Positions 1 to 8,599 of a stretch of 64,000 bases of DNA are shown here, one piece after another. The DNA lies in NCBI GenBank assembly GCA_051599415.1, contig AP039714.1, positions 1-64,000 on the forward strand, written 5' to 3'. The DNA is from Savitreella phatthalungensis (Eukaryota). Below the pieces are notes generated by a model, which was given only the letters and a program-made list of their open reading frames with translations, did not search any database and had not been told where the DNA came from. The position numbers and the translations under genes are program-made. The first letter of the stretch is position 1. Each line of letters opens with the position of its first letter.

Positions 1-71
1 TATGTAACCTTCGTTCAGTTACGTATTGCTAAGGTTAAGACTACTTTCTGCCTTTGCGAGAACAGCACCCT
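1..71 (+). other. Oxford Nanopore ligation adapter + native barcode NB06 with flanks (sequencing artefact)
   Basis: 1-30 TATGTAACCTTCGTTCAGTTACGTATTGCT matches the adapter (AATGTACTTCGTTCAGTTACGTATTGCT) with read errors. 31-38 AAGGTTAA is the flank, 39-62 GACTACTTTCTGCCTTTGCGAGAA is NB06, and 63-71 CAGCACC(C)T is the second flank. Confidence 0.97.
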
Positions 72-170
72 ACCCTAACCCTAACCCTAACCCTAACCCT
101 AACCCTAACCCTAACCCTAACCCTAACCCTAACCCTAACCCTAACCCTAACCCTAACCCCAACCCTAACC
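72..170 (+). repeat. Telomere, (CCCTAA)n, i.e. TTAGGG type
   Basis: 14 perfect CCCTAA units (73-156), one CCCCAA variant and one more CCCTAA, C-strand at the contig start. Confidence 0.98.
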
Positions 171-194
171 GTCAAACTAACCAATGCCCCAACC

Positions 195-272
195 CTTGCT
201 CTGCTTTGCTTTGCTCGCTTGCTTGCTTGCTTGCTTGCTTGCTCGCTTGCTTGCTTGCTTGCTCGCTTGCTA
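195..272. repeat. (GCTT)n microsatellite adjacent to the telomere
   Basis: Run of TTGC/TCGC tetramers. Confidence 0.9.
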
Positions 273-537
273 ACCTTGTTTCTTTGCTCACCCCTGCTGC
301 CTTGCTACATGACACTTGTCCGCACCCATACGCCCCTGCTGGTCTTCAACATCATCATCATCATCTTGCTGTCTCCTTGCTGCTCCTCTCTGCTGCTCCT
401 CTCTCCGCTGTACTCCTGATCTCAATCCCTCATCTATCTGATACTCTTCCTCCAGTTTACCTGAAACATCTCATGCCATTTGCCCCCCAACATTCCTACT
501 GCTAACCGCTTTTCCCTTATTTCATCTCCAACTGCAC

Positions 538-780
538 TGTCACCTGCCACACGCTGGTACCTGCATGTCACCTGCCACACGCTGTTGCCTGCATGTCACC
601 TGTCACATGCTGTTACTTGCATGTCGCTTGTCAAATGCTGTTACCTGCACTGCCACCTGTCAAACATCTTTATCTTTACCTGCAACACATCTGTCAACCG
701 CCTTTACCTGCAACACATCTGTCAAATGCCATTACCTGCACCATCATCTGGCAAATGCTGTTGCCTGCACCGTCACCTGA
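538..780. repeat. Degenerate ~28-bp minisatellite, CpG-depleted
   Basis: Units such as TGTCACCTGCCACACGCTGGTACCTGCA at 538, 566, 594 and 622, with further decayed copies. Confidence 0.8.
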
Positions 781-1060
781 CCCACTGCCCTGCTCTGTGA
801 CCCAACATTTGTCAAACCCTTGATCTGCCAATTGCTGTTCACCTGTCATCTCCTGTTTTCTGTTTCTGTCACTCACTGTTGCCTGCACTGTACTCTGTTT
901 CATCACTTCACTGCCATCTGTCAAATGCTGTCATCTGTTAAACACTGCAACATCACTTGATACATCATTCCTGCACTGTCACTTGTTGTTTGAACACCTG
1001 GCCCCTGCCACTGACTCTGTCTCTGCTTGTTGACACATCACCTACTTGGCCCTGATCTCA
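720..1060 (+). repeat. Dispersed subtelomeric repeat, copy A (direct repeat of 5590-5935)
   Basis: Shares long blocks with 5590-5935, e.g. CCTTGATCTGCCAATTGCTGTTCA, CTCCTGTTTTCTGTTTCTGTCACTCACTGTTGCCTGCACTGTAC, AAATGCTGTCATCTGTTAAACACTGCAACATCACTTGATA and TTTGAACACCTGGCCCCTGCC. Confidence 0.9.
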
Positions 1061-1339
1061 TGCTGGCGCCTGTTATGCAACTCAATCAACTGCAATGTCA
1101 CATGGCATGCACTGTTACCTCCATTGTTGCTCGTCAAATCCATTGCGTGCGCTGTGCTGTGCCCTTTCCTCCACAACTCACTCTAAATCACTCTCACTTG
1201 CTCCTCTTGTATGTCTTGTGCACCATTGCATGTACTTGCCACTGTCATACACTGTAATCTGTCCACTATGTCGTGTCTGTGCCTGTCTGTGCTCCTTGTA
1301 TGCCTCATTCTACTATCTAGTCTGTGTTTTATTGACTGT

Positions 1340-1630
1340 GATGGCTGCTTCTGCTACCACACTGACTACTTCTGACATTCCCTCTGACATTCCCTTCACT
1401 CCTTCTAATACTGCCACTACTACAGCTACTGCTGCATTCATTACTGCTGCATTCATTACTGCTGCTGTTCCTACTGCTGTTCCTACTGCTGCCACTGCTG
1501 CTGCCACTGCTGCTGCTGCTACTACCACTACCACCGCTGCTGCTACTGCCGCTGCTGGCGGTGCTGCGGCTCTGCTGCTGTGCTGTGCTGTGCTGCAGGT
1601 GCTGTGCTGCTGCTGCTGCTGCTGGCGGCC
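1340..1630. repeat. Low-complexity (CTG/CTA/CCA)n trinucleotide-rich tract
   Basis: Runs of ACTGCTGCT and CTGTG; the poly-Ala/Thr ORFs arise from this composition. Confidence 0.8.
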
Positions 1631-1774
1631 ACCGGTGTAGCGCCTAACTGGCGCTCGCCTGATTGCAGGGCCAGTTGCAGGGCCGAAATTGCACCAGCCA
1701 CACGCTGCGCCACAGAACCGTGCGATTGTGTCGGCAACATCCTACAACCTTCAGAAGACAGGTTCTTGACGACT

Positions 1775-4690
1775 GCCTAGTACCACTACCTCCTAGTACT
1801 ACTACCTCCTAGTACTACTACCTCTTAGTACTACTACGGCCTGTTACTAGTGCCACCACCTAGTACCACTACAACCTACTGCTAGTACGACCTAGTAGGT
1901 GCGAAAAATGCTCGACTCGGCGACGACCTAGTACCACTACTGCCTAGTACTGCCACCTACCACCACAACCTAGTACTACCACCTAGTACTACTACGACCT
2001 AGTACTAGTACAACCTACTGCTAGTACGACCTAGTAGGTGCAAAAAATGATCGACTCGGCGACGACCTAGTACCACTACTGCCTAGTACTGCCACCTACC
2101 ACCACAACCTAGTACTACCTCCTAGTACTACTACAATCTAGTAGCACCTACTACTAGTACAATCTATTACTAGTATGACCTAGTAGGTGCGAAAAACGGA
2201 TCGACTCGGCGACGACCTAGCACCACCACCTAGTACTACCTAGCGCGACCTGGCACGGCCTATTACTAGTACCACCACCTGGCACCACGACAACCTACTA
2301 CTAGTACCACCACCTGCTAGTACGACCTGGCACTACCTAGCACCGACTGCGACCGAGGCCGACCTGGACCTGGTCACGTGACGGCACAAATCACGTGTGG
2401 GTGCCATTCAGGTCGACAAGCCAAATGGCACCTGCACGTGTGGGTGCCATTCAGGTCAACGAGCCAAATGGCACCCACACGTGTTTGACCTACTGCGACC
2501 TGGCACTACTACGACCTAGGACTACTACGACCTAGCACCACCACCTAGTACTACTACCAGCTACTACTACCAGCTACTACTACCACCTAGGACTAGCACC
2601 TAGTAGGTGCGAAAAACGGATCGACTCGGCGACGACCTGGCGCCACCACCTAGTACCACCTAGTGCGACCTGGCACGGCTTATTACTAGTACCACCACCT
2701 GACACCACTGTGACCTACTACTAGTACCACCACCTACTAGTACGACCTGGCACTGCAGAGTACTGCCACCTGGCACTACTACCTAGCACCGACTGCGACC
2801 GAGGCCGACCTGGACCTGGTCACGTGACGGCACAAATCACGTGTGGGTGCCATTCAGGTCAACGAGCCAAATGGCACCTGCACGTGTGGGTGCCATTCAG
2901 CTCATCGACCCAAATGGCACTTGCACGTGTTTGACCTAGTGCGACCTGGCACTACTACAACCTAGTACTACTACAATCTAGTACTACCTCCTGGTACTAC
3001 TACAACCTAGTACTACCTCCTAGTACTACTACAATCTAGTAGCACCTACTACTAGTACAATCTATTACTAGTATGACCTAGTAGGTGCGAAAAACGGATC
3101 GACTCGGCGACGACCTAGCACCACCACCTAGTACTACCTAGCGCGACCTGGCACGGCCTATTACTAGTACCACCACCTGGCACCACGACAACCTACTACT
3201 AGTACCACCACCTGCTAGTACGACCTGGCACTACCTAGCACCGACTGCGACCGAGGCCGACCTGGACCTGGTCACGTGACGGCACAAATCACGTGTGGGT
3301 GCCATTCAGGTCGACGAGCCAAATGGCACCTGCACGTGTGGGTGCCATTCAGGTCAACGAGCCAAATGGCACCCACACGTGTTTGACCTACTGCGACCTG
3401 GCACTACTACGACCTAGGACTACTACGACCTAGCACCACCACCTAGTACTACTACCAGCTACTACTACCAGCTACTACTACCACCTAGGACTAGCACCTA
3501 GTAGGTGCGAAAAACGGATCGACTCGGCGACGACCTGGCGCCACCACCTAGTACCACCTAGTGCGACCTGGCACGGCTTATTACTAGTACCACCACCTGA
3601 CACCACTGTGACCTACTACTAGTACCACCACCTACTAGTACGACCTGGCACTGCAGAGTACTGCCACCTGGCACTACTACCTAGCACCGACTGCGACCGA
3701 GGCCGACCTGGACCTGGTCACGTGACGGCACAAATCACGTGTGGGTGCCATTCAGGTCAACGAGCCAAATGGCACCTGCACGTGTGGGTGCCATTCAGCT
3801 CATCGACCCAAATGGCACTTGCACGTGTTTGACCTAGTGCGACCTGGCACTACTACAACCTAGTACTACTACAATCTAGTACTACCTCCTGGTACTACTA
3901 CAACCTAGTACTACCTCCTAGTACTACTACAATCTAGTAGCACCTACTACTAGTACAATCTATTACTAGTATGACCTAGTAGGTGCGAAAAACGGATCGA
4001 CTCGGCGACGACCTAGCACCACCACCTAGTACTACCTAGCGCGACCTGGCACGGCCTATTACTAGTACCACCACCTGGCACCACGACAACCTACTACTAG
4101 TACCACCACCTGCTAGTACGACCTGGCACTACCTAGCACCGACTGCGACCGAGGCCGACCTGGACCTGGTCACGTGACGGCACAAATCACGTGTGGGTGC
4201 CATTCAGGTCGACGAGCCAAATGGCACCTGCACGTGTGGGTGCCATTCAGGTCGACGAGCCAAATGGCACCTGCACGTGTGGGTGCCATTCAGGTCGACG
4301 AGCCAAATGGCACCCACACGTGTTTGACCTACTGCGACCTGGCACTACTACGACCTAGTACTACTACAATCTAGTACTACCTCCTAGTACTACTACAACC
4401 TAGTACTACTACCAGCTACTACTACAACCTACTACTAGTAATACCTAGTAGGTGCGAAAATAGATCGACTCGGCGACGACCTAGCACCACCACCTAGTAC
4501 TACCTAGCGCGACCTGGCACGGCCTATTACTAGTACCACCACCTGGCACCACGACAACCTACTACTAGTACCACCACCTGCTAGTGCCACCACCTGCTAG
4601 TACGACATGGTAGCACTGAGTACTGCCACCTGGCACCACCTAGAACGGCCTAGTACCACCACCTAGTACAACCTACTACAATCTAGTACA
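1775..4690. repeat. Subtelomeric higher-order tandem array (420+478 = 898-bp dimer) in a CTAGTACTAC matrix
   Basis: The marker AGGTGC(G/A)AAAA..GATCGACTCGGCGACGACC occurs at 1897, 2036, 2185, 2605, 3083, 3503, 3981 and 4450 (spacings 139, 149, 420, 478, 420, 478, 469). Each full monomer has GGTCACGTGACGG plus two (last: three) 43-bp hairpin units. Confidence 0.95.
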
Positions 4691-4725
4691 ACCATGTCAT
4701 TGTGCTCAAATGCCTTGTAGATCAT

Positions 4726-5350
4726 TGACAAACAGCGCCAATCTCAAATGGATGCACAGAACAAACGGCGCCAGGTCCTCACTAGGTGTTTGACAAACGG
4801 CGCCAATTTGGTGGTCAGCTGTTTGACAAACGGCGCCAATTTGGTGGTCAGCTGTCTGACAAACGGCGCCAATTTTATATGGATGCACAGGACAAACGGC
4901 GCCAGATCCTCACTAGGTGTTTGACAAACGGCGCCAATTTGGTGGTCAGCTGTTCGACAAACGGCGCCAATTTCAAATGGATGCACGACAAACGGCGCCA
5001 GGTCCTCGCTGGGTGTTTGACAAACGGCGCCAATTTGGTGGTCAGCTGTCTGACAAACGGCGCCAATTTCATATGGATGCACGACAAACGGCGCCAATTT
5101 GCTGGTCATGTGCCTGACAAACGGCGCCAATTTCAAATGGATGCACAGAACAAACGGCGCACAGGCAATCTATTTCCAAAAAACGGCGCCAATTTGCTGG
5201 TCAGGTGCCTGACAAACGGCGCCTCACATGACCAAAACTCGACAAACGGCGCCAAAATTGATATTTTTTGGAGATCAAATTATTCTTCTGAGGGCCTCCA
5301 GATAGGAGCAAATTTTGTCTTTCCGGCCCCGCTGACAAATGGCGCCAAAA
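4726..5350 (+). repeat. Phased array of the GACAAACGGCGCCA motif (31-33-bp period) with three recurring spacer types
   Basis: Motif starts near 4727, 4760, 4792, 4825, 4858, 4891, 4923, 4956, 4987, 5019, 5052, 5083, 5116, 5149 and beyond. Spacers are TTTGGTGGTCAGCTGT, TTTCAAATGGATGCAC and GTCCTCACTAGGTGTTT. Confidence 0.95.
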
Positions 5351-5358
5351 TGGCGTTG

Positions 5359-5586
5359 GATGCACGACAAACGGCGCCAAATTTTTGTGCATTGCGCCGT
5401 TTGTCAGGCGAAAAAATTGCCCCTATCTAAACCAGGTCAAACAAACGGGGTCAAACGCGAGGAATATATCTAGATGCACGACAAACGGCGCCAAATTTTT
5501 GTGCATTGCGCCGTTTGTCAGGCGAAAAAATTGCCCCTATCTAAACCAGGTCAAACAAACGGGGTCAAACGCGAGGAATATATCTA
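5359..5586 (+). repeat. 114-bp tandem duplication containing the inverted repeat GACAAACGGCGC...GCGCCGTTTGTC
   Basis: 5359-5472 and 5473-5586 read identically. Each has a 12-bp inverted repeat around a 16-nt spacer. Confidence 0.95.
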
Positions 5587-5589
5587 GTG

Positions 5590-5935
5590 TTATCTGCACT
5601 GTCACTTGTGTCATCATCTCTCAAATACCGTTACCTGCGCTACTACTTGCCTCATTGCCCTGCTCTGTGGCCTGGCATTTGTCCAAACCTTGATCTGCCA
5701 ATTGCTGTTCATCTGTTGACTCCTGTTTTCTGTTTCTGTCACTCACTGTTGCCTGCACTGTACTTTGTTCCATCACCATGCTGCAATTTGTAAAATGCTG
5801 TCATCTGTTAAACACTGCAACATCACTTGATATATCATTCCTGCACTGTTACTTGTCATTTGAACACCTGGCCCCTGCCGCTGACTCTGTCTCTGTTTGT
5901 CATAAATACCACCTGCTTGGCTCTGACTCTACCCA
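5590..5935 (+). repeat. Dispersed subtelomeric repeat, copy B
   Basis: Diverged direct repeat of ~720-1060. Confidence 0.9.
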
Positions 5936-5949
5936 CATGCATGCATAGC

Positions 5950-6790
5950 ATGTGTTCAGACAGACATAGCAATGATTTCATCACATATGAGGGGCTGACT
6001 TACAAGTCCGCGGTTTGGAAAACGATCAAGCAGAGCTTGCGCTATATGATTGTAGATTGCAATGTCGTCCTCCTCCTTCATCTGGTCCGGCGCTTGTCTC
6101 TGCGCCCTTGGCCATGCCTCGAAACCCACCACGGAGCAAGACCTGGAAATTGTATGTGACATTAGGCTCGTTCACCACTACAAAGCAATTTCTCACAGTG
6201 GAAGCGCTCGACAGTAAAGCAGAGTCGGCAACGAGAATTGTACCATGTCATTTGGTCACGTTTGCATCTTCCAACTTTCCCTCTCAATGGCGAGAACGAG
6301 TCTGCCACTCGCTGAAGCACAGCTTACTGATTAGAGATACGGGCTTGTTACCTTCATCTATCAGTACACAAGGAAGGAGCACTACAAGGTCACCCTTGAT
6401 GGCTTTCAATCTATTCTGGGCGACAGCACCCAAACAATTTCCGAAATAGGGAAGAAGGATTTTCAATGCAGCTGAATTGAACGACCAAGAGCCATTCAAA
6501 CTGAACCCAAGGTGAAGGTAACAGGGACGATTTGAGCCATGCACGACCATAAACTTCTTAAAGAGGAAGGAGATTTTCTAAGTTTTGACAGCTTCTCGAG
6601 CCTTCAGGACGGCAAGACGGAAAAGACACGCACTCCAGCGACACATGAATCACTATCATAGGTTATGCCGACTACAGCTGCCCCAGTTGTCTGCCGGACC
6701 AGAATGTCATCAAAGAGTTGGGACCATACGATTTTCCAAGGAGCCTTCCGACAACAATCGCGCCGCAGGCCGTTGCGCCCTTTTGACAAG
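5950..6790 (+). pseudogene. Possible decayed coding remnant, unidentified
   Basis: Protein-like + frames interrupted by TAG/TGA stops that could derive from CAG/CGA (MARTSLPLAEAQLTD*RYGLVTFIYQYTRKEHYKVTLDGFQSILG...). No family recognised. Confidence 0.25.
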
Positions 6791-6931
6791 ATTTATAGAT
6801 GACGCGCGCATTGCACTCGACATTCAGCTCACTCGCTGTTGTAGGCCACATTGACAGCCTTTCGCCGGCAAAAGGACTTGGCTGCAATTCCCCTCAATCA
6901 CTGCGCTGCCCCGAGAGGTCTGGTCTCTAGC

Positions 6932-8599
6932 ATGGTGTCGCTGCTACTTTTACTCCTCCCTTTTTGTGTGCTTAGCCACGCTGCAGACACAGCTGCGAGT
7001 CTCGCAGCCGCACAAGGTCGATGTAGTTCAGTGAAGGCCATCGTCTCAGCGCTTCCGACCACGGCTGCATCGTCGGCGTCGGCTTTCTGTAATGCGTTGC
7101 TCGGAGCAACAATACTTACAGCGCCTATCACAACGATCACTGTGCGAGGCACATGCGCATTGCCATTGCCATCAGATCTGTCGCTACGCACTCTCAGTAA
7201 GCGCGAGAAGCGAGGGTTCGTCCGCAGCGTCGCTGCTCCATGTCCGAGTTTCATGACTGCTCTGGGCACCAGCAGCATCTCGCAAGTCTGTGCGTGCTTA
7301 AAGTCAGCAGCGATCTCTACTTCAACATTCACCCCGACTGCAACAGTCACTAAATACAGTCCAGTGACAATAACGAGCACAAAGACTGTACAGGTTTCGG
7401 TTATCTCCAACCTGCCAATCCTGACATCGACGATTCAGGTGCGAGACGCTGCAAGCTACGTGACAAAGGTAATAACTGTCACAAGCATTGCGCCAACGAG
7501 TACAGTGACAATGACTGCTTCCAACGTTGTTTCGACTGTTCCTACCAGCACGCTCTCTGTCACCTCGACCGCAAGCTATCTCGTGCTTGAGTACACATCT
7601 TATTCGACCGAGACCTTGACCGGGACAAGTTACCTCATGATACCAATGCTGTCAACGAGATACATTTATTCCTGGGCAACGGTCACCGTACCAACAAGAA
7701 CGGTCTCCGTTGTTGCATCCATTGTGATTGACGGAAAAGCAGCTTTGTGCAAGCGAGACAAAGGTCTCACCCGCAGAGCCAGTCTGCCGGCTGCGAATCT
7801 CTGCCAGATTGTCACTGACACGGCTGTAATAACAGAGACTGTCACAATACCCTCTCAAAGCGTTCTTCAGCTCTACACTACGTCGACTCCAATGATAATT
7901 GCGAACGCTACAGTTACATTGACCTCGGTTCCAATCGTCAATTACACAAGCACACCTACCGTCACATCCACGCCCTACGTCACCACAACAATTGTCGAGA
8001 CCGTGACTACGACCCTCTATGATTCTGTCGGCCCTGAATCTGGCTCCTACGTGTCCACAAGCACGGCGGAGTATACAGTACTTGACGCCTATTCTGTTAC
8101 CCTATTAACCTCAACCAGCACCACTTACACATCAACCTCCACGAGCTATCTGCCTGTAGAGACAATCACTGTTGCAACAAAGACAGAATTTGTCACGATG
8201 CCAGAAGCGACGGCTACCGTGGCGCCGCAGCTTGAGATCCTCGTCGGAAATTCCAGGTTGCACGCGGGTCCAGGCACGAGCGGCGTTTATCTCAGCATTT
8301 GGAATGGAGTGCCCGATAATGTCACTTTCGTCTACAGCATTTCCAGTGATGGCATCATCAGCTCTTCAGCGGGCTCATTCATGCAACCTCCAAAGTCAGG
8401 GTATCCAATTTTCATGAAAACGGATACAGACAATCGGGCAAGATGTAAAATCGCCGTTGATGGCGTCACGCTGCACTGCGGAATGTTCATGAGGTTTGTA
8501 GAGGGCCACTTTGCCTGGGGCGGGTATCTTCCGTTTGCTTCTTATTATCGGGCTGTGCCAGACTTCAGACTTCAACCGGCCAATCGTGGATGCTTCTGA
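6932..8599 (+). CDS. Secreted Ser/Thr-rich adhesin/mucin-like protein (555 aa)
   Basis: ATG at 6932 gives the signal peptide MVSLLLLLLPFCVLSHA. It is followed by a Cys-containing N-domain, KR dibasic sites, a long Thr/Val/Ser stalk and a small C-terminal globular domain with no GPI tail. Confidence 0.8.
   Translation: MVSLLLLLLPFCVLSHAADTAASLAAAQGRCSSVKAIVSALPTTAASSASAFCNALLGATILTAPITTITVRGTCALPLPSDLSLRTLSKREKRGFVRSVAAPCPSFMTALGTSSISQVCACLKSAAISTSTFTPTATVTKYSPVTITSTKTVQVSVISNLPILTSTIQVRDAASYVTKVITVTSIAPTSTVTMTASNVVSTVPTSTLSVTSTASYLVLEYTSYSTETLTGTSYLMIPMLSTRYIYSWATVTVPTRTVSVVASIVIDGKAALCKRDKGLTRRASLPAANLCQIVTDTAVITETVTIPSQSVLQLYTTSTPMIIANATVTLTSVPIVNYTSTPTVTSTPYVTTTIVETVTTTLYDSVGPESGSYVSTSTAEYTVLDAYSVTLLTSTSTTYTSTSTSYLPVETITVATKTEFVTMPEATATVAPQLEILVGNSRLHAGPGTSGVYLSIWNGVPDNVTFVYSISSDGIISSSAGSFMQPPKSGYPIFMKTDTDNRARCKIAVDGVTLHCGMFMRFVEGHFAWGGYLPFASYYRAVPDFRLQPANRGCF

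What the first reader, a model, noticed from the sequence alone, without database searches (positions are those of the whole stretch)
2371..2490. Chained E-box/hairpin module: GTCACGTGAC then 43-bp units with up to 17-bp perfect inverted arms
Seen: GGTCACGTGACGG, then CACGTGTGGGTGCCATT-15 nt-AATGGCAC units at a 43-bp period. The unit at 2435-2483 is a perfect 17-bp inverted repeat (CACGTGTGGGTGCCATT / AATGGCACCCACACGTG). Loops vary (CAGGTCGACAAGCCA, CAGGTCAACGAGCCA, CAGCTCATCGACCCA) while the GTGCCATT/AATGGCAC arms and loop length are fixed. The module recurs near 2818, 3269, 3716 and 4167; the last has three units. Known: RTCACGTG is the Cbf1/CDEI bHLH site. Inference: fixed arms with a fixed-length variable core resemble dimeric protein or recombinase sites, or cruciform/RNA stem-loops.
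Basis: partly seen in the sequence, partly recalled or inferred. Interest (0 to 1): 0.75.

Follow-up and report, generated by a model that had tools for sequence, protein, structure and literature searches.

The report
Palindromic core of a subtelomeric satellite
The E-box/hairpin module is real, but it is the best-kept core of a tandem repeat lying about 2 kb inside a fungal chromosome end, an ordinary kind of sequence whose palindromes may dock a paired DNA-binding protein.

Summary
There are 11 exact GTGCCATT-N15-AATGGCAC units (0 in 100 shuffles), 5 GTCACGTGAC leaders and a perfect 17-bp inverted repeat at 2435-2483. The window starts with an untrimmed nanopore adapter followed by a (CCCTAA)17 telomere. 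The "recurrences" are successive monomers of a non-coding subtelomeric satellite (1760-4700). Five long monomers alternate at 446/452 bp as an 898-bp higher-order repeat whose copies are 897/898 identical. Between the two diverged monomer types, the leader, E-boxes and arms show 0 changes in 102 positions, against 33 in 419 overall. All 8 variable columns of the 43-bp unit fall in the 15-nt loop or the 3-nt tail. Read in the other register, each 43-bp period is an invariant 28-bp CACGTG-centred quasi-palindrome plus a 15-bp variable linker. The satellite also occurs in runs of a second organism label. I found no transposase, recombinase, Rfam family or coding potential. Most likely it is a subtelomeric satellite whose core docks a dimeric (bHLH-type) factor; a neutral, structure-driven origin is nearly as likely. 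Binding, transcription and spread over chromosome ends remain untested.

The parts
1..69 (.). Untrimmed nanopore adapter plus native-barcode flanks (AAGGTTAA-N24-CAGCACC at 31-69). This is an assembly artefact. It shows that a read began at the physical chromosome end.
   Evidence: The pattern AAGGTTAA-N24-CAGCACCT is quoted as the ONT 5' adapter in PMC11984142 (passage read).
67..170 (+). Terminal telomere tract, (CCCTAA)17.5. The G-rich strand is the minus strand and runs towards the end.
   Evidence: period 6, 17.5 copies, 96% matches.
1760..4700 (+). Subtelomeric satellite domain. CTAG-rich 13/16/29-bp words are organised into 139-bp monomers and then 420-478-bp monomers.
   Evidence: No minus-strand stop-to-stop ORF of 50 aa or more; the longest plus-strand ORF is 85 aa. 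None of 4 such ORFs has a Pfam match at E<=1.
1896..2183 (+). Two short monomers (139 and 149 bp) that lack the E-box/hairpin module.
   Evidence: alignment, anchored on TAGGTGCGAAAA.
2184..4448 (+). Five long monomers A-B-A-B-A' (420, 478, 420, 478, 469 bp), forming an 898-bp higher-order repeat.
   Evidence: 2184-3081 vs 3082-3979 is 897/898 identical; A vs B has 386 matches, 33 mismatches and 60 gap columns.
4449..4700 (+). Truncated last monomer without the module.
2371..2490 (.). Module 1 (the finding): leader with a 10-bp palindrome GTCACGTGAC, two 43-bp units and a closing CACGTG.
2817..2936 (.). Module 2 (B type). Its second unit has the most diverged loop and a TTG tail.
3269..3388 (.). 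Module 3 (A type). It differs from module 1 at one loop base, which aligns with 2418.
3715..3834 (.). Module 4 (B type), identical to module 2.
4167..4329 (.). Module 5 (A' type) with three identical-loop units.
   Evidence: 4188-4323, 3.2 copies, 97% matches.
2424..2451 (.). One of six identical 28-bp CACGTG-centred quasi-palindromes at unit junctions. The others start at 2870, 3322, 3768, 4220 and 4263.
   Evidence: 24 of 28 positions are symmetric; the two off-pairs per arm are G/T.
4726..5587 (+). Second, unrelated satellite (33/96/131-bp periods) built on GACAAACGGCGCCAA. It ends in two perfect 114-bp units, each holding a 12-bp inverted repeat.
   Evidence: D8, D9, D12.
742..1030 (+). 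289-bp segment repeated directly at 5612-5900 (87% identity). The two copies bracket both satellites.
   Evidence: D10.

Best explanation
SHOWN: the module is the most conserved part of the monomer of a non-coding, telomere-adjacent (subtelomeric) tandem satellite of a fungus. It starts 2.2 kb from a (CCCTAA)n chromosome end. The satellite has a higher-order structure: A/B monomers of 446/452 bp form an 898-bp unit. It changes by tandem duplication at two scales, the 898-bp copies and 2 versus 3 of the 43-bp units. This is the signature of unequal recombination or replication slippage. INFERRED (about 0.4 on its own): the module works at the DNA level as a dense pad of two-fold-symmetric protein sites. 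Each 43-bp period is an invariant 28-bp quasi-palindrome centred on the E-box CACGTG (arm, 3 nt, CACGTG, 3 nt, arm) followed by a free 15-bp linker. A perfect GTCACGTGAC palindrome leads each module. That gives 4-5 CACGTG per module and 21 in 2 kb. A dimeric factor, most simply a bHLH of the Cbf1/USF type with or without a partner reading the 8-9-bp arms, would bind each palindrome. The sites would lie about four helical turns apart. The resulting protein-bound island in a strand-skewed, G-poor satellite could act as a chromatin boundary or as a start region for telomere-directed transcripts. This would resemble the Abf1/Tbf1 sites of yeast X elements or the CTCF sites of human subtelomeres.
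For: Telomere and position. Satellite anatomy. Non-coding. Constraint pattern between the only diverged copies (A vs B): 0 mismatches in 52 pre-leader/leader positions and 0 in 50 E-box/TGG/arm positions, against 33/419 overall (P of 0 in 102 at that rate = 2.3e-4). The 8 unit mismatches all lie in loops or tails. Across the 11 units, 8 of 18 loop+tail columns vary against 0 of 25 others (Fisher p = 3e-4). Six junction palindromes are letter-identical. The satellite, including the module region, is covered by contigs of runs X3 and X4, which carry another organism label and study (42 and 6 contigs laid, all 30 depth bins covered). The module is the only part of the array with balanced composition: G 0.288 and C 0.283, against G 0.174 and C 0.346 in the rest. 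Precedent for factor sites in telomere-associated repeats: PMC7374410 (passages read).
Against: No binding, chromatin or transcript data exist. Effectively only two or three independent copies were compared, so the statistics rest on one A/B divergence. An 87-bp block of A/B identity (about 2326-2412) could be a gene-conversion tract rather than selection. Single-stranded loops of extruded hairpins may simply mutate faster. The arms are not absolutely fixed: one X4 contig shows a unit with a G-to-A change in the right arm (loose end at 2483). Outside the array the arm word and CACGTG occur at chance frequency (GTGCCATT 2 vs 1.7 expected; CACGTG 15 vs 16 expected), so the window gives no sign of a genome-wide regulon for such a factor. 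A bHLH dimer alone contacts roughly 12-14 bp (recalled), not 28. One search's variant table under-reports short contigs: X4 pieces over the units carry 3-5 unlisted differences. Cross-organism conservation of the module is therefore not established.
Confidence: 0.45

Rival explanations
1. Selectively neutral satellite. The palindromic 43-bp unit arose by a chance inverted duplication and was amplified by slippage and unequal crossing-over. Arms stay identical because copies are young and because quasi-palindromes are corrected by intra-strand template switching. Loops diverge because they are unpaired in extruded or lagging-strand hairpins. There is no sequence-specific reader.
For: Higher-order copies are 897/898 identical, which means very recent amplification. 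Unit number varies between 2 and 3. A second, unrelated satellite 400 bp away also carries a short palindrome (GGCGCC) and a 12-bp inverted repeat, so palindromes seem to be a general property of this subtelomere. Motifs outside the array are at chance level. Strong hairpin potential exists on both strands. Most subtelomeric satellites have no shown function (general knowledge).
Against: In the B monomer's second unit, 6 of 18 loop/tail positions differ from A while the interleaved 25 arm/E-box positions are all identical. A simple conversion tract would not skip the loops. Template-switch correction keeps arms complementary, but it does not explain an invariant E-box and leader. My test for descent of the arms from the basal satellite words was negative (scores within shuffles), so the origin is unexplained.
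Confidence: 0.35
2. RNA-level element. The array is transcribed, for example as part of a TERRA-like minus-strand transcript running to the telomere. Its 17-bp to over 40-bp hairpins would then act as structured RNA or as Dicer substrates that seed small-RNA-directed subtelomeric silencing.
For: RNA folds are very stable on both strands: -65.5 and -68.7 kcal/mol for 120 nt, z -6.3 and -8.1; -100.3 kcal/mol for 141 nt, z -11.8. Rfam gives only hairpin-shaped, sub-threshold miRNA-precursor matches; the best is mir-652 at 32.5 bits against a gathering score of 73. All three tail variants keep G-U pairs on the plus-strand RNA (sequence).
Against: No Rfam family reaches its threshold. There is no arm variation in the window, hence no covariation test. 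The G-U observation is expected from any transition in a CCA tail, so it carries almost no weight. Whether the organism has RNAi genes is unknown because no genome is held.
Confidence: 0.1
3. Relic of a mobile element or a recombinase/transposase target: inverted arms round a fixed-length core, as in lox/FRT sites or the subterminal repeats of DNA transposons. It would have been captured into the satellite monomer.
For: The geometry is 8-9-bp inverted arms with a 15-nt asymmetric spacer. The short 139/149-bp monomers lack the module, so it was added to an older repeat. A 14-bp direct repeat (CGACCTGGCACTAC) flanks the module block (sequence).
Against: None of the 24 ORFs of 250 aa or more has a transposase, recombinase or helicase domain. 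All 11 units sit in one array, and the arm word outside it is at chance level. The flanking direct repeat is itself a common word of the basal satellite, so it is not a convincing target-site duplication. There was no related hit in the viral or metagenome scans.
Confidence: 0.05

Closest known systems
Telomere-associated sequences (TAS) carrying factor sites: S. cerevisiae core X/STR elements (Abf1, Tbf1 sites) and human subtelomeres with CTCF/cohesin sites 1-2 kb from the TTAGGG tract (PMC7374410, passages read)
   Same: Non-coding repeats lie directly inside the telomere tract. Short protein-site-like motifs are embedded in them. The distance from the terminal repeats is 2-4 kb.
   Different: There is no sequence similarity. 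Here the candidate sites are E-box-centred 28-bp palindromes in 43-bp tandem. No binding or insulator/promoter activity has been shown.
Plasmodium falciparum SPE2 motif arrays in subtelomeric TARE2/3 bound by the ApiAP2 factor PfSIP2 (PMC2829057; search listing only, details recalled)
   Same: Arrays of a fixed bipartite motif with fixed spacing, confined to subtelomeric repeats. This is the clearest precedent for how such a pad could work.
   Different: A different kingdom, motif and factor family. SPE2 is a direct bipartite motif, not a palindrome.
Chromosome-end-specific long-motif tandem arrays of Microstromatales yeasts (PMC13234504; abstract and passages read) and UTASa of Ustilago/Mycosarcoma maydis (named in that paper)
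   Same: Basidiomycete fungi with long-unit tandem repeats at chromosome ends. In the paper's hypothesis (its abstract and discussion, not my analysis), those arrays arose by an ALT-like, telomerase-independent amplification mechanism, which is recombination-based.
   Different: Here a canonical (CCCTAA)n tract caps the end, so the array is subtelomeric and not the telomere itself. No RecQ/TLH helicase gene lies nearby: none of the 24 large ORFs has one.
Cbf1/CDEI and USF-type E-box sites (RTCACRTG; GGTCACGTGACC), recalled
   Same: The leader GGTCACGTGAC fits the word on both strands. The first unit's ATCACGTG fits on one strand.
   Different: The internal (TGCACGTG) and closing (CACACGTG) E-boxes do not fit RTCACRTG. 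There is no AT-rich CDEII-like neighbour, and binding is untested.
lox/FRT-type recombinase sites
   Same: Inverted arms around an asymmetric spacer of fixed length.
   Different: The arms are 8-9 bp and the spacer 15 nt, against 13/8 (recalled). The units are in tandem with shared arms, and the window holds no recombinase gene.

Membership tests
Subtelomeric satellite / telomere-associated sequence | Lies directly internal to a terminal telomere-repeat tract | tested here: met
   (CCCTAA)17.5 at 67-170, preceded by a read adapter; the array spans 1760-4700.
Subtelomeric satellite / telomere-associated sequence | Head-to-tail tandem copies, here with a higher-order period | tested here: met
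   8 monomers. Leader spacing is 446/452/446/452. The 898-bp copies are 897/898 identical.
Subtelomeric satellite / telomere-associated sequence | Non-coding | tested here: met
   No minus-strand ORF of 50 aa or more, and a longest plus-strand ORF of 85 aa. None of 4 array ORFs has a Pfam match at E<=1. CTAG is very dense: the window holds 220 copies, and most of the 60 positions printed lie in the array.
Subtelomeric satellite / telomere-associated sequence | Shared by several chromosome ends of the genome | not testable with these tools
   No genome is held. In X1 the 161-nt module contig has depth 774, against 87-126 for variant contigs. This hints at more copies than one, but the depth is uncalibrated.
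Subtelomeric satellite / telomere-associated sequence | Present in other isolates or relatives | tested here: met
   Runs X3 and X4 (another organism label and study): 42 and 6 contigs laid, with all 30 bins covered.
Cbf1/CDEI-type bHLH site | RTCACRTG word (recalled consensus) | tested here: met
   5 of 5 leaders fit on both strands. 5 of 5 first units fit on one strand. The internal and closing E-boxes do not fit.
Cbf1/CDEI-type bHLH site | Point-centromere context (AT-rich CDEII, then CDEIII) | tested here: not met
   The module is 57% G+C and lies in a satellite next to a telomere.
Cbf1/CDEI-type bHLH site | Bound by the bHLH protein | not testable with these tools
   Needs EMSA, DAP-seq or ChIP.
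Recombinase target / transposon terminal repeat | Cognate recombinase or transposase gene nearby | tested here: not met
   None of the 24 ORFs of 250 aa or more in the 64-kb window has one.
Recombinase target / transposon terminal repeat | Dispersed copies with target-site duplications | tested here: not met
   All 11 units lie in one array. GTGCCATT outside it occurs 2 times against 1.7 expected. Tested in the window only.
Known structured RNA / miRNA precursor family (Rfam 15) | Score at or above the family's gathering threshold | tested here: not met
   10 matches at E<=1 in 1-7000, all far below gathering; the best is 32.5 bits against 73.
Known structured RNA / miRNA precursor family (Rfam 15) | Compensatory changes in the stem | tested here: inconclusive
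   There is no arm variation among the 11 units. One arm change seen in X4 has an unknown partner.

The most novel reading that the evidence does not exclude
The 28-bp CACGTG-centred palindromes are dedicated landing sites for a subtelomere-organising dimeric factor. This would be a fungal counterpart of CTCF, Tbf1/Reb1 or PfSIP2 pads. Such a factor would set the heterochromatin boundary or fire TERRA-like transcription towards the telomere. Alternatively, the same palindromes transcribed as long hairpins would feed small-RNA silencing of the chromosome end. Either reading would give a sequence-defined, genetically tractable subtelomere element in a basidiomycete.
Probability: 0.15. Interest if true: 0.6.

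Novelty: new member of a known kind. Interest (0 to 1): 0.3.

Why it matters
As it stands, this is a lineage-specific subtelomeric satellite, a familiar class of sequence. It has some value in two respects. First, the arms and E-boxes are invariant while the linkers are free, which gives a clean, testable candidate for a sequence-specific subtelomere-binding factor in a basidiomycete fungus, where TTAGGG telomere biology resembles that of animals. Second, the adapter-capped contig end documents a true chromosome terminus with a compact, fully readable subtelomere: telomere, skewed spacer, two palindrome-bearing satellites, then the first gene within 7 kb. If no factor binds, it is an example of palindromic satellites maintained by replication and recombination mechanics.

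Tried and rejected
(1) Whole-genome scan for the motif: no genome is held for this window.

(2) Earlier notes of this scan, by place, sequence and words: nothing on this genome or sequence.

(3) Metagenome scan with the 21-nt leader: one contig (L001), a chance match with no units behind it.

(4) Viral-contig scan with the 17-nt left arm: one single chance match with no partner arm.

(5) RNA evidence: no RNA holder was listed by the look-up of sequencing runs. This says nothing on expression.

(6) Run X7 (phyllosphere metagenome, share 0.06): one 194-nt contig under 90% alike covers only 2212-2382. That is too little to name a habitat or to say the units are present there.

(7) Descent of the arms from the basal satellite words (inverted duplication of a TGGCACC-type word): local alignment scores of 12-16 fell within shuffles (83-241 of 300 shuffles as good). 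Rejected.

(8) Coding reading: none of 4 array ORFs has a Pfam match.

(9) Rfam: only sub-threshold hairpin look-alikes.

(10) Literature string searches for the module, basal word and second-satellite word: 0 papers. The 8-mers alone hit 3,370 papers, evidently as parts of primers and the like. The word search on CACGTG, subtelomeric, palindromic and fungus gave nothing relevant.

(12) The leader's GGCACAAAT also fits the recalled Ndt80 mid-sporulation word gNCRCAAAW. This is a post-hoc 7-specified-base match and I give it no weight.
Full report
WHAT IS THERE

GTGCCATT-N15-AATGGCAC occurs 11 times without mismatch, all between 2401 and 4313, and never in 100 dinucleotide-preserving shuffles. 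GTCACGTGAC occurs 5 times, against 0.18 expected. Tandem Repeats Finder reports the 43-bp period at 2392-2484, 2838-2930, 3290-3382 and 3736-3828 (2.2 copies each) and at 4188-4323 (3.2 copies). The unit at 2435-2483 is a perfect 17-bp inverted repeat around a 15-nt loop.

As single strands the modules fold far better than shuffles. DNA folds give z -6.1 (+ strand) and -7.9 (- strand) for 2371-2490, and -11.5 for 4185-4325 (+ strand). RNA folds give z -6.3 to -13.1. In every case 0 of 200 shuffles folded as well.

The window is a chromosome end.
- Bases 31-69 match the nanopore native-barcode 5' pattern AAGGTTAA-N24-CAGCACC (the pattern is quoted in PMC11984142, passage read). The bases before them look like the ligation adapter (recalled).
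- (CCCTAA)17.5 follows at 67-170.
- The next roughly 6 kb is strongly strand-skewed in the telomeric sense: GC skew is -0.35, -0.23 and -0.15 in the first three 2-kb bins and about 0 further in.
- The genes beyond 6.8 kb are ordinary fungal housekeeping genes: Ndc80, ORC3, NST1, Trm732, a TPP enzyme, Dus3, ETF-QO, seipin and Pex14.
- The Ndc80 protein's nearest atlas cluster is mostly Basidiomycota.
- The long, nearly intron-free ORFs suggest a smut-like (Ustilaginomycotina) yeast. That is my inference.
- No whole genome is held.

ANATOMY OF THE REPEAT

From about 1760 to 4700 the DNA is one satellite. It is built from CTAG-rich 13/16/29-bp words and a conserved 40-nt box (TAGGTGCGAAAA...CGACTCGGCGACGACCT). 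Anchoring on that box gives eight monomers:
- two short ones (139 and 149 bp) without the module;
- five long ones (420, 478, 420, 478 and 469 bp) with it;
- a truncated last one.

The long monomers alternate as types A and B, which explains the leader spacing of 446/452/446/452. Together they form an 898-bp higher-order unit. Its two full copies are 897/898 identical, while A and B differ at 33 of 419 aligned positions plus 60 gap columns. The "recurrences" at 2818, 3269, 3716 and 4167 are therefore successive monomers of one array, and only A, B and the three-unit A' are informative.

The array is non-coding. It has no minus-strand stop-to-stop ORF of 50 aa or more, its longest plus-strand ORF is 85 aa, and none of 4 tested ORFs has any Pfam match at E<=1.

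A second, unrelated satellite (4726-5587, built on GACAAACGGCGCCAA) follows. Both satellites are bracketed by an 87%-identical 289-bp direct repeat at 742-1030 and 5612-5900.

WHERE VARIATION FALLS

The 11 units comprise 6 distinct sequences. The variable columns are 5 of the 15 loop positions and all 3 tail positions. None of the 25 E-box/TGG/arm positions varies (Fisher p = 3e-4; loop against the 16 core arm positions alone gives p = 0.018).

In the A/B comparison:
- pre-leader plus leader (52 positions) has 0 mismatches;
- the E-box/TGG/arm positions of both units (50 positions) have 0 mismatches;
- the units' 8 mismatches all lie in loops or tails;
- the flanking basal parts are 62-75% identical once gaps are counted.

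At the overall rate of 33/419, 0 mismatches in 102 positions has P = 2.3e-4.

Three caveats apply. This is essentially one divergence event. The 87-bp identical block at about 2326-2412 may be a conversion tract. Unpaired loops may mutate faster.

A SECOND REGISTER

Because the arms alternate in orientation, each 43-bp period can equally be read as a 28-bp quasi-palindrome centred on CACGTG plus a 15-bp linker. The palindrome is arm, CTG, CACGTG, TGG, arm, with 24 of 28 positions symmetric and the off-pairs being G/T. Six such junction palindromes are letter-identical, at 2424, 2870, 3322, 3768, 4220 and 4263. This register is the natural shape of a dimeric protein site. The 43-bp spacing is about four helical turns. 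Each module is led by the perfect GTCACGTGAC palindrome. The array holds 21 CACGTG in 2 kb, against 15 in the other 61 kb (16 expected in 58 kb).

ELSEWHERE

Eight public runs were listed. X1 and X2 hold 0.61 and 0.34 of the words, under one organism label, and may be the source of the window. X3-X6 hold 0.06-0.13 under a second label and study. X7 is a phyllosphere metagenome with 0.06.

I laid one monomer (2184-2603) on X1, X3, X4 and X7.
- X1, X3 and X4 cover all 30 depth bins, with 79, 42 and 6 contigs.
- X7 has one contig under 90% alike, over 2212-2382 only.
- In X1 a 161-nt contig (2332-2492, depth 774) carries the module with one difference, 2418 A>G. That is the base that also distinguishes module 1 from module 3 in the window.
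- The variant table lists 30 rows (29 distinct positions, 2282 twice) in 2219-2373, but only 2418 between 2374 and 2512.

That table omits differences near contig ends, however, and X4 pieces over the units carry 3-5 unlisted differences. One X4 contig shows a unit with a changed right arm. The second organism label therefore has the satellite and the module, but relative conservation across organisms is not established.

The metagenome and viral scans gave one chance hit each. Text searches for the module strings, the basal word and the second satellite's word found 0 papers.

INTERPRETATION

Shown: this is a subtelomeric higher-order satellite whose palindromic module is its least variable part. 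It expands and contracts at both the 43-bp and 898-bp scales.

Inferred, in order of weight:

1. A DNA-level docking pad for a two-fold-symmetric factor, most simply a CACGTG-binding bHLH, possibly with a partner reading the arms. It would create a bound island that could delimit chromatin or start telomere-directed transcription. The analogy is with Abf1/Tbf1 sites in yeast X elements and CTCF sites 1-2 kb from human telomeres (PMC7374410, passages read), and with PfSIP2/SPE2 arrays (PMC2829057, listing only, details recalled). About 0.4.

2. A neutral, structure-driven satellite. About 0.35.

3. An RNA hairpin or small-RNA source. About 0.1. Only sub-threshold Rfam hairpin look-alikes were found.

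4. A mobile-element or recombinase relic. About 0.05. None of the 24 large ORFs encodes a transposase, recombinase or helicase, and there are no dispersed copies in the window.

COMPARISON AND NOVELTY

The feature belongs to the well-known class of telomere-associated tandem repeats.

It differs from the Microstromatales end-specific arrays (PMC13234504; abstract and passages read) in sitting under a canonical TTAGGG cap. [quoted passage not shown]

It is not a member of the CDEI/centromere system, because the context test is not met. It is not a member of any Rfam family.

I rate it a new member of a known kind, of modest interest. Its main value is as a clean candidate site for a subtelomere-binding factor.

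Noticed in passing
window 1-69: The contig begins with untrimmed nanopore adapter and native-barcode flanks (AAGGTTAA-N24-CAGCACC), directly followed by the telomere tract. This is an assembly artefact that should be trimmed. It also shows that the read started at the true chromosome terminus, with about 104 bp of CCCTAA repeats.
   Followed up: yes
window 4726-5587: A second satellite is built on GACAAACGGCGCCAA, with 33/96/131-bp periods. It ends in two perfect 114-bp units (5359-5586), each with a 12-bp inverted repeat (GACAAACGGCGC / GCGCCGTTTGTC). It is a different sequence, but again a palindrome-bearing repeat. No literature hit was found for the word.
   Followed up: partly
window 742-1030 and 5612-5900: A 289-bp direct repeat at 87% identity brackets both satellites (D10). 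This suggests the satellite block was added distal to an older chromosome end, or was duplicated with it.
   Followed up: no
window 171-6000: The whole subtelomere keeps the telomeric strand bias: C 0.317 against G 0.198 on the plus strand, and GC skew -0.35 to -0.15. It includes a (CTTG)n tract at 195-271, 28-bp repeats at 532-769 and a CTG-rich tract at 1426-1624.
   Followed up: no
window 6932-8599 (+): The first gene inside the subtelomere is a 555-aa ORF from its first ATG (582 aa from an upstream TTG in the table-11 listing). It has a hydrophobic N-terminus, Ser/Thr-rich sequence and no Pfam match. It may be a secreted or cell-wall protein, as is common at fungal chromosome ends.
   Followed up: no
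window 1896-4700, box TAGGTGCGAAAA...CGACTCGGCGACGACCT: A roughly 40-nt box is conserved in all 8 monomers, including the short ones that lack the E-box module. It is a second candidate functional core of the satellite.
   Followed up: no
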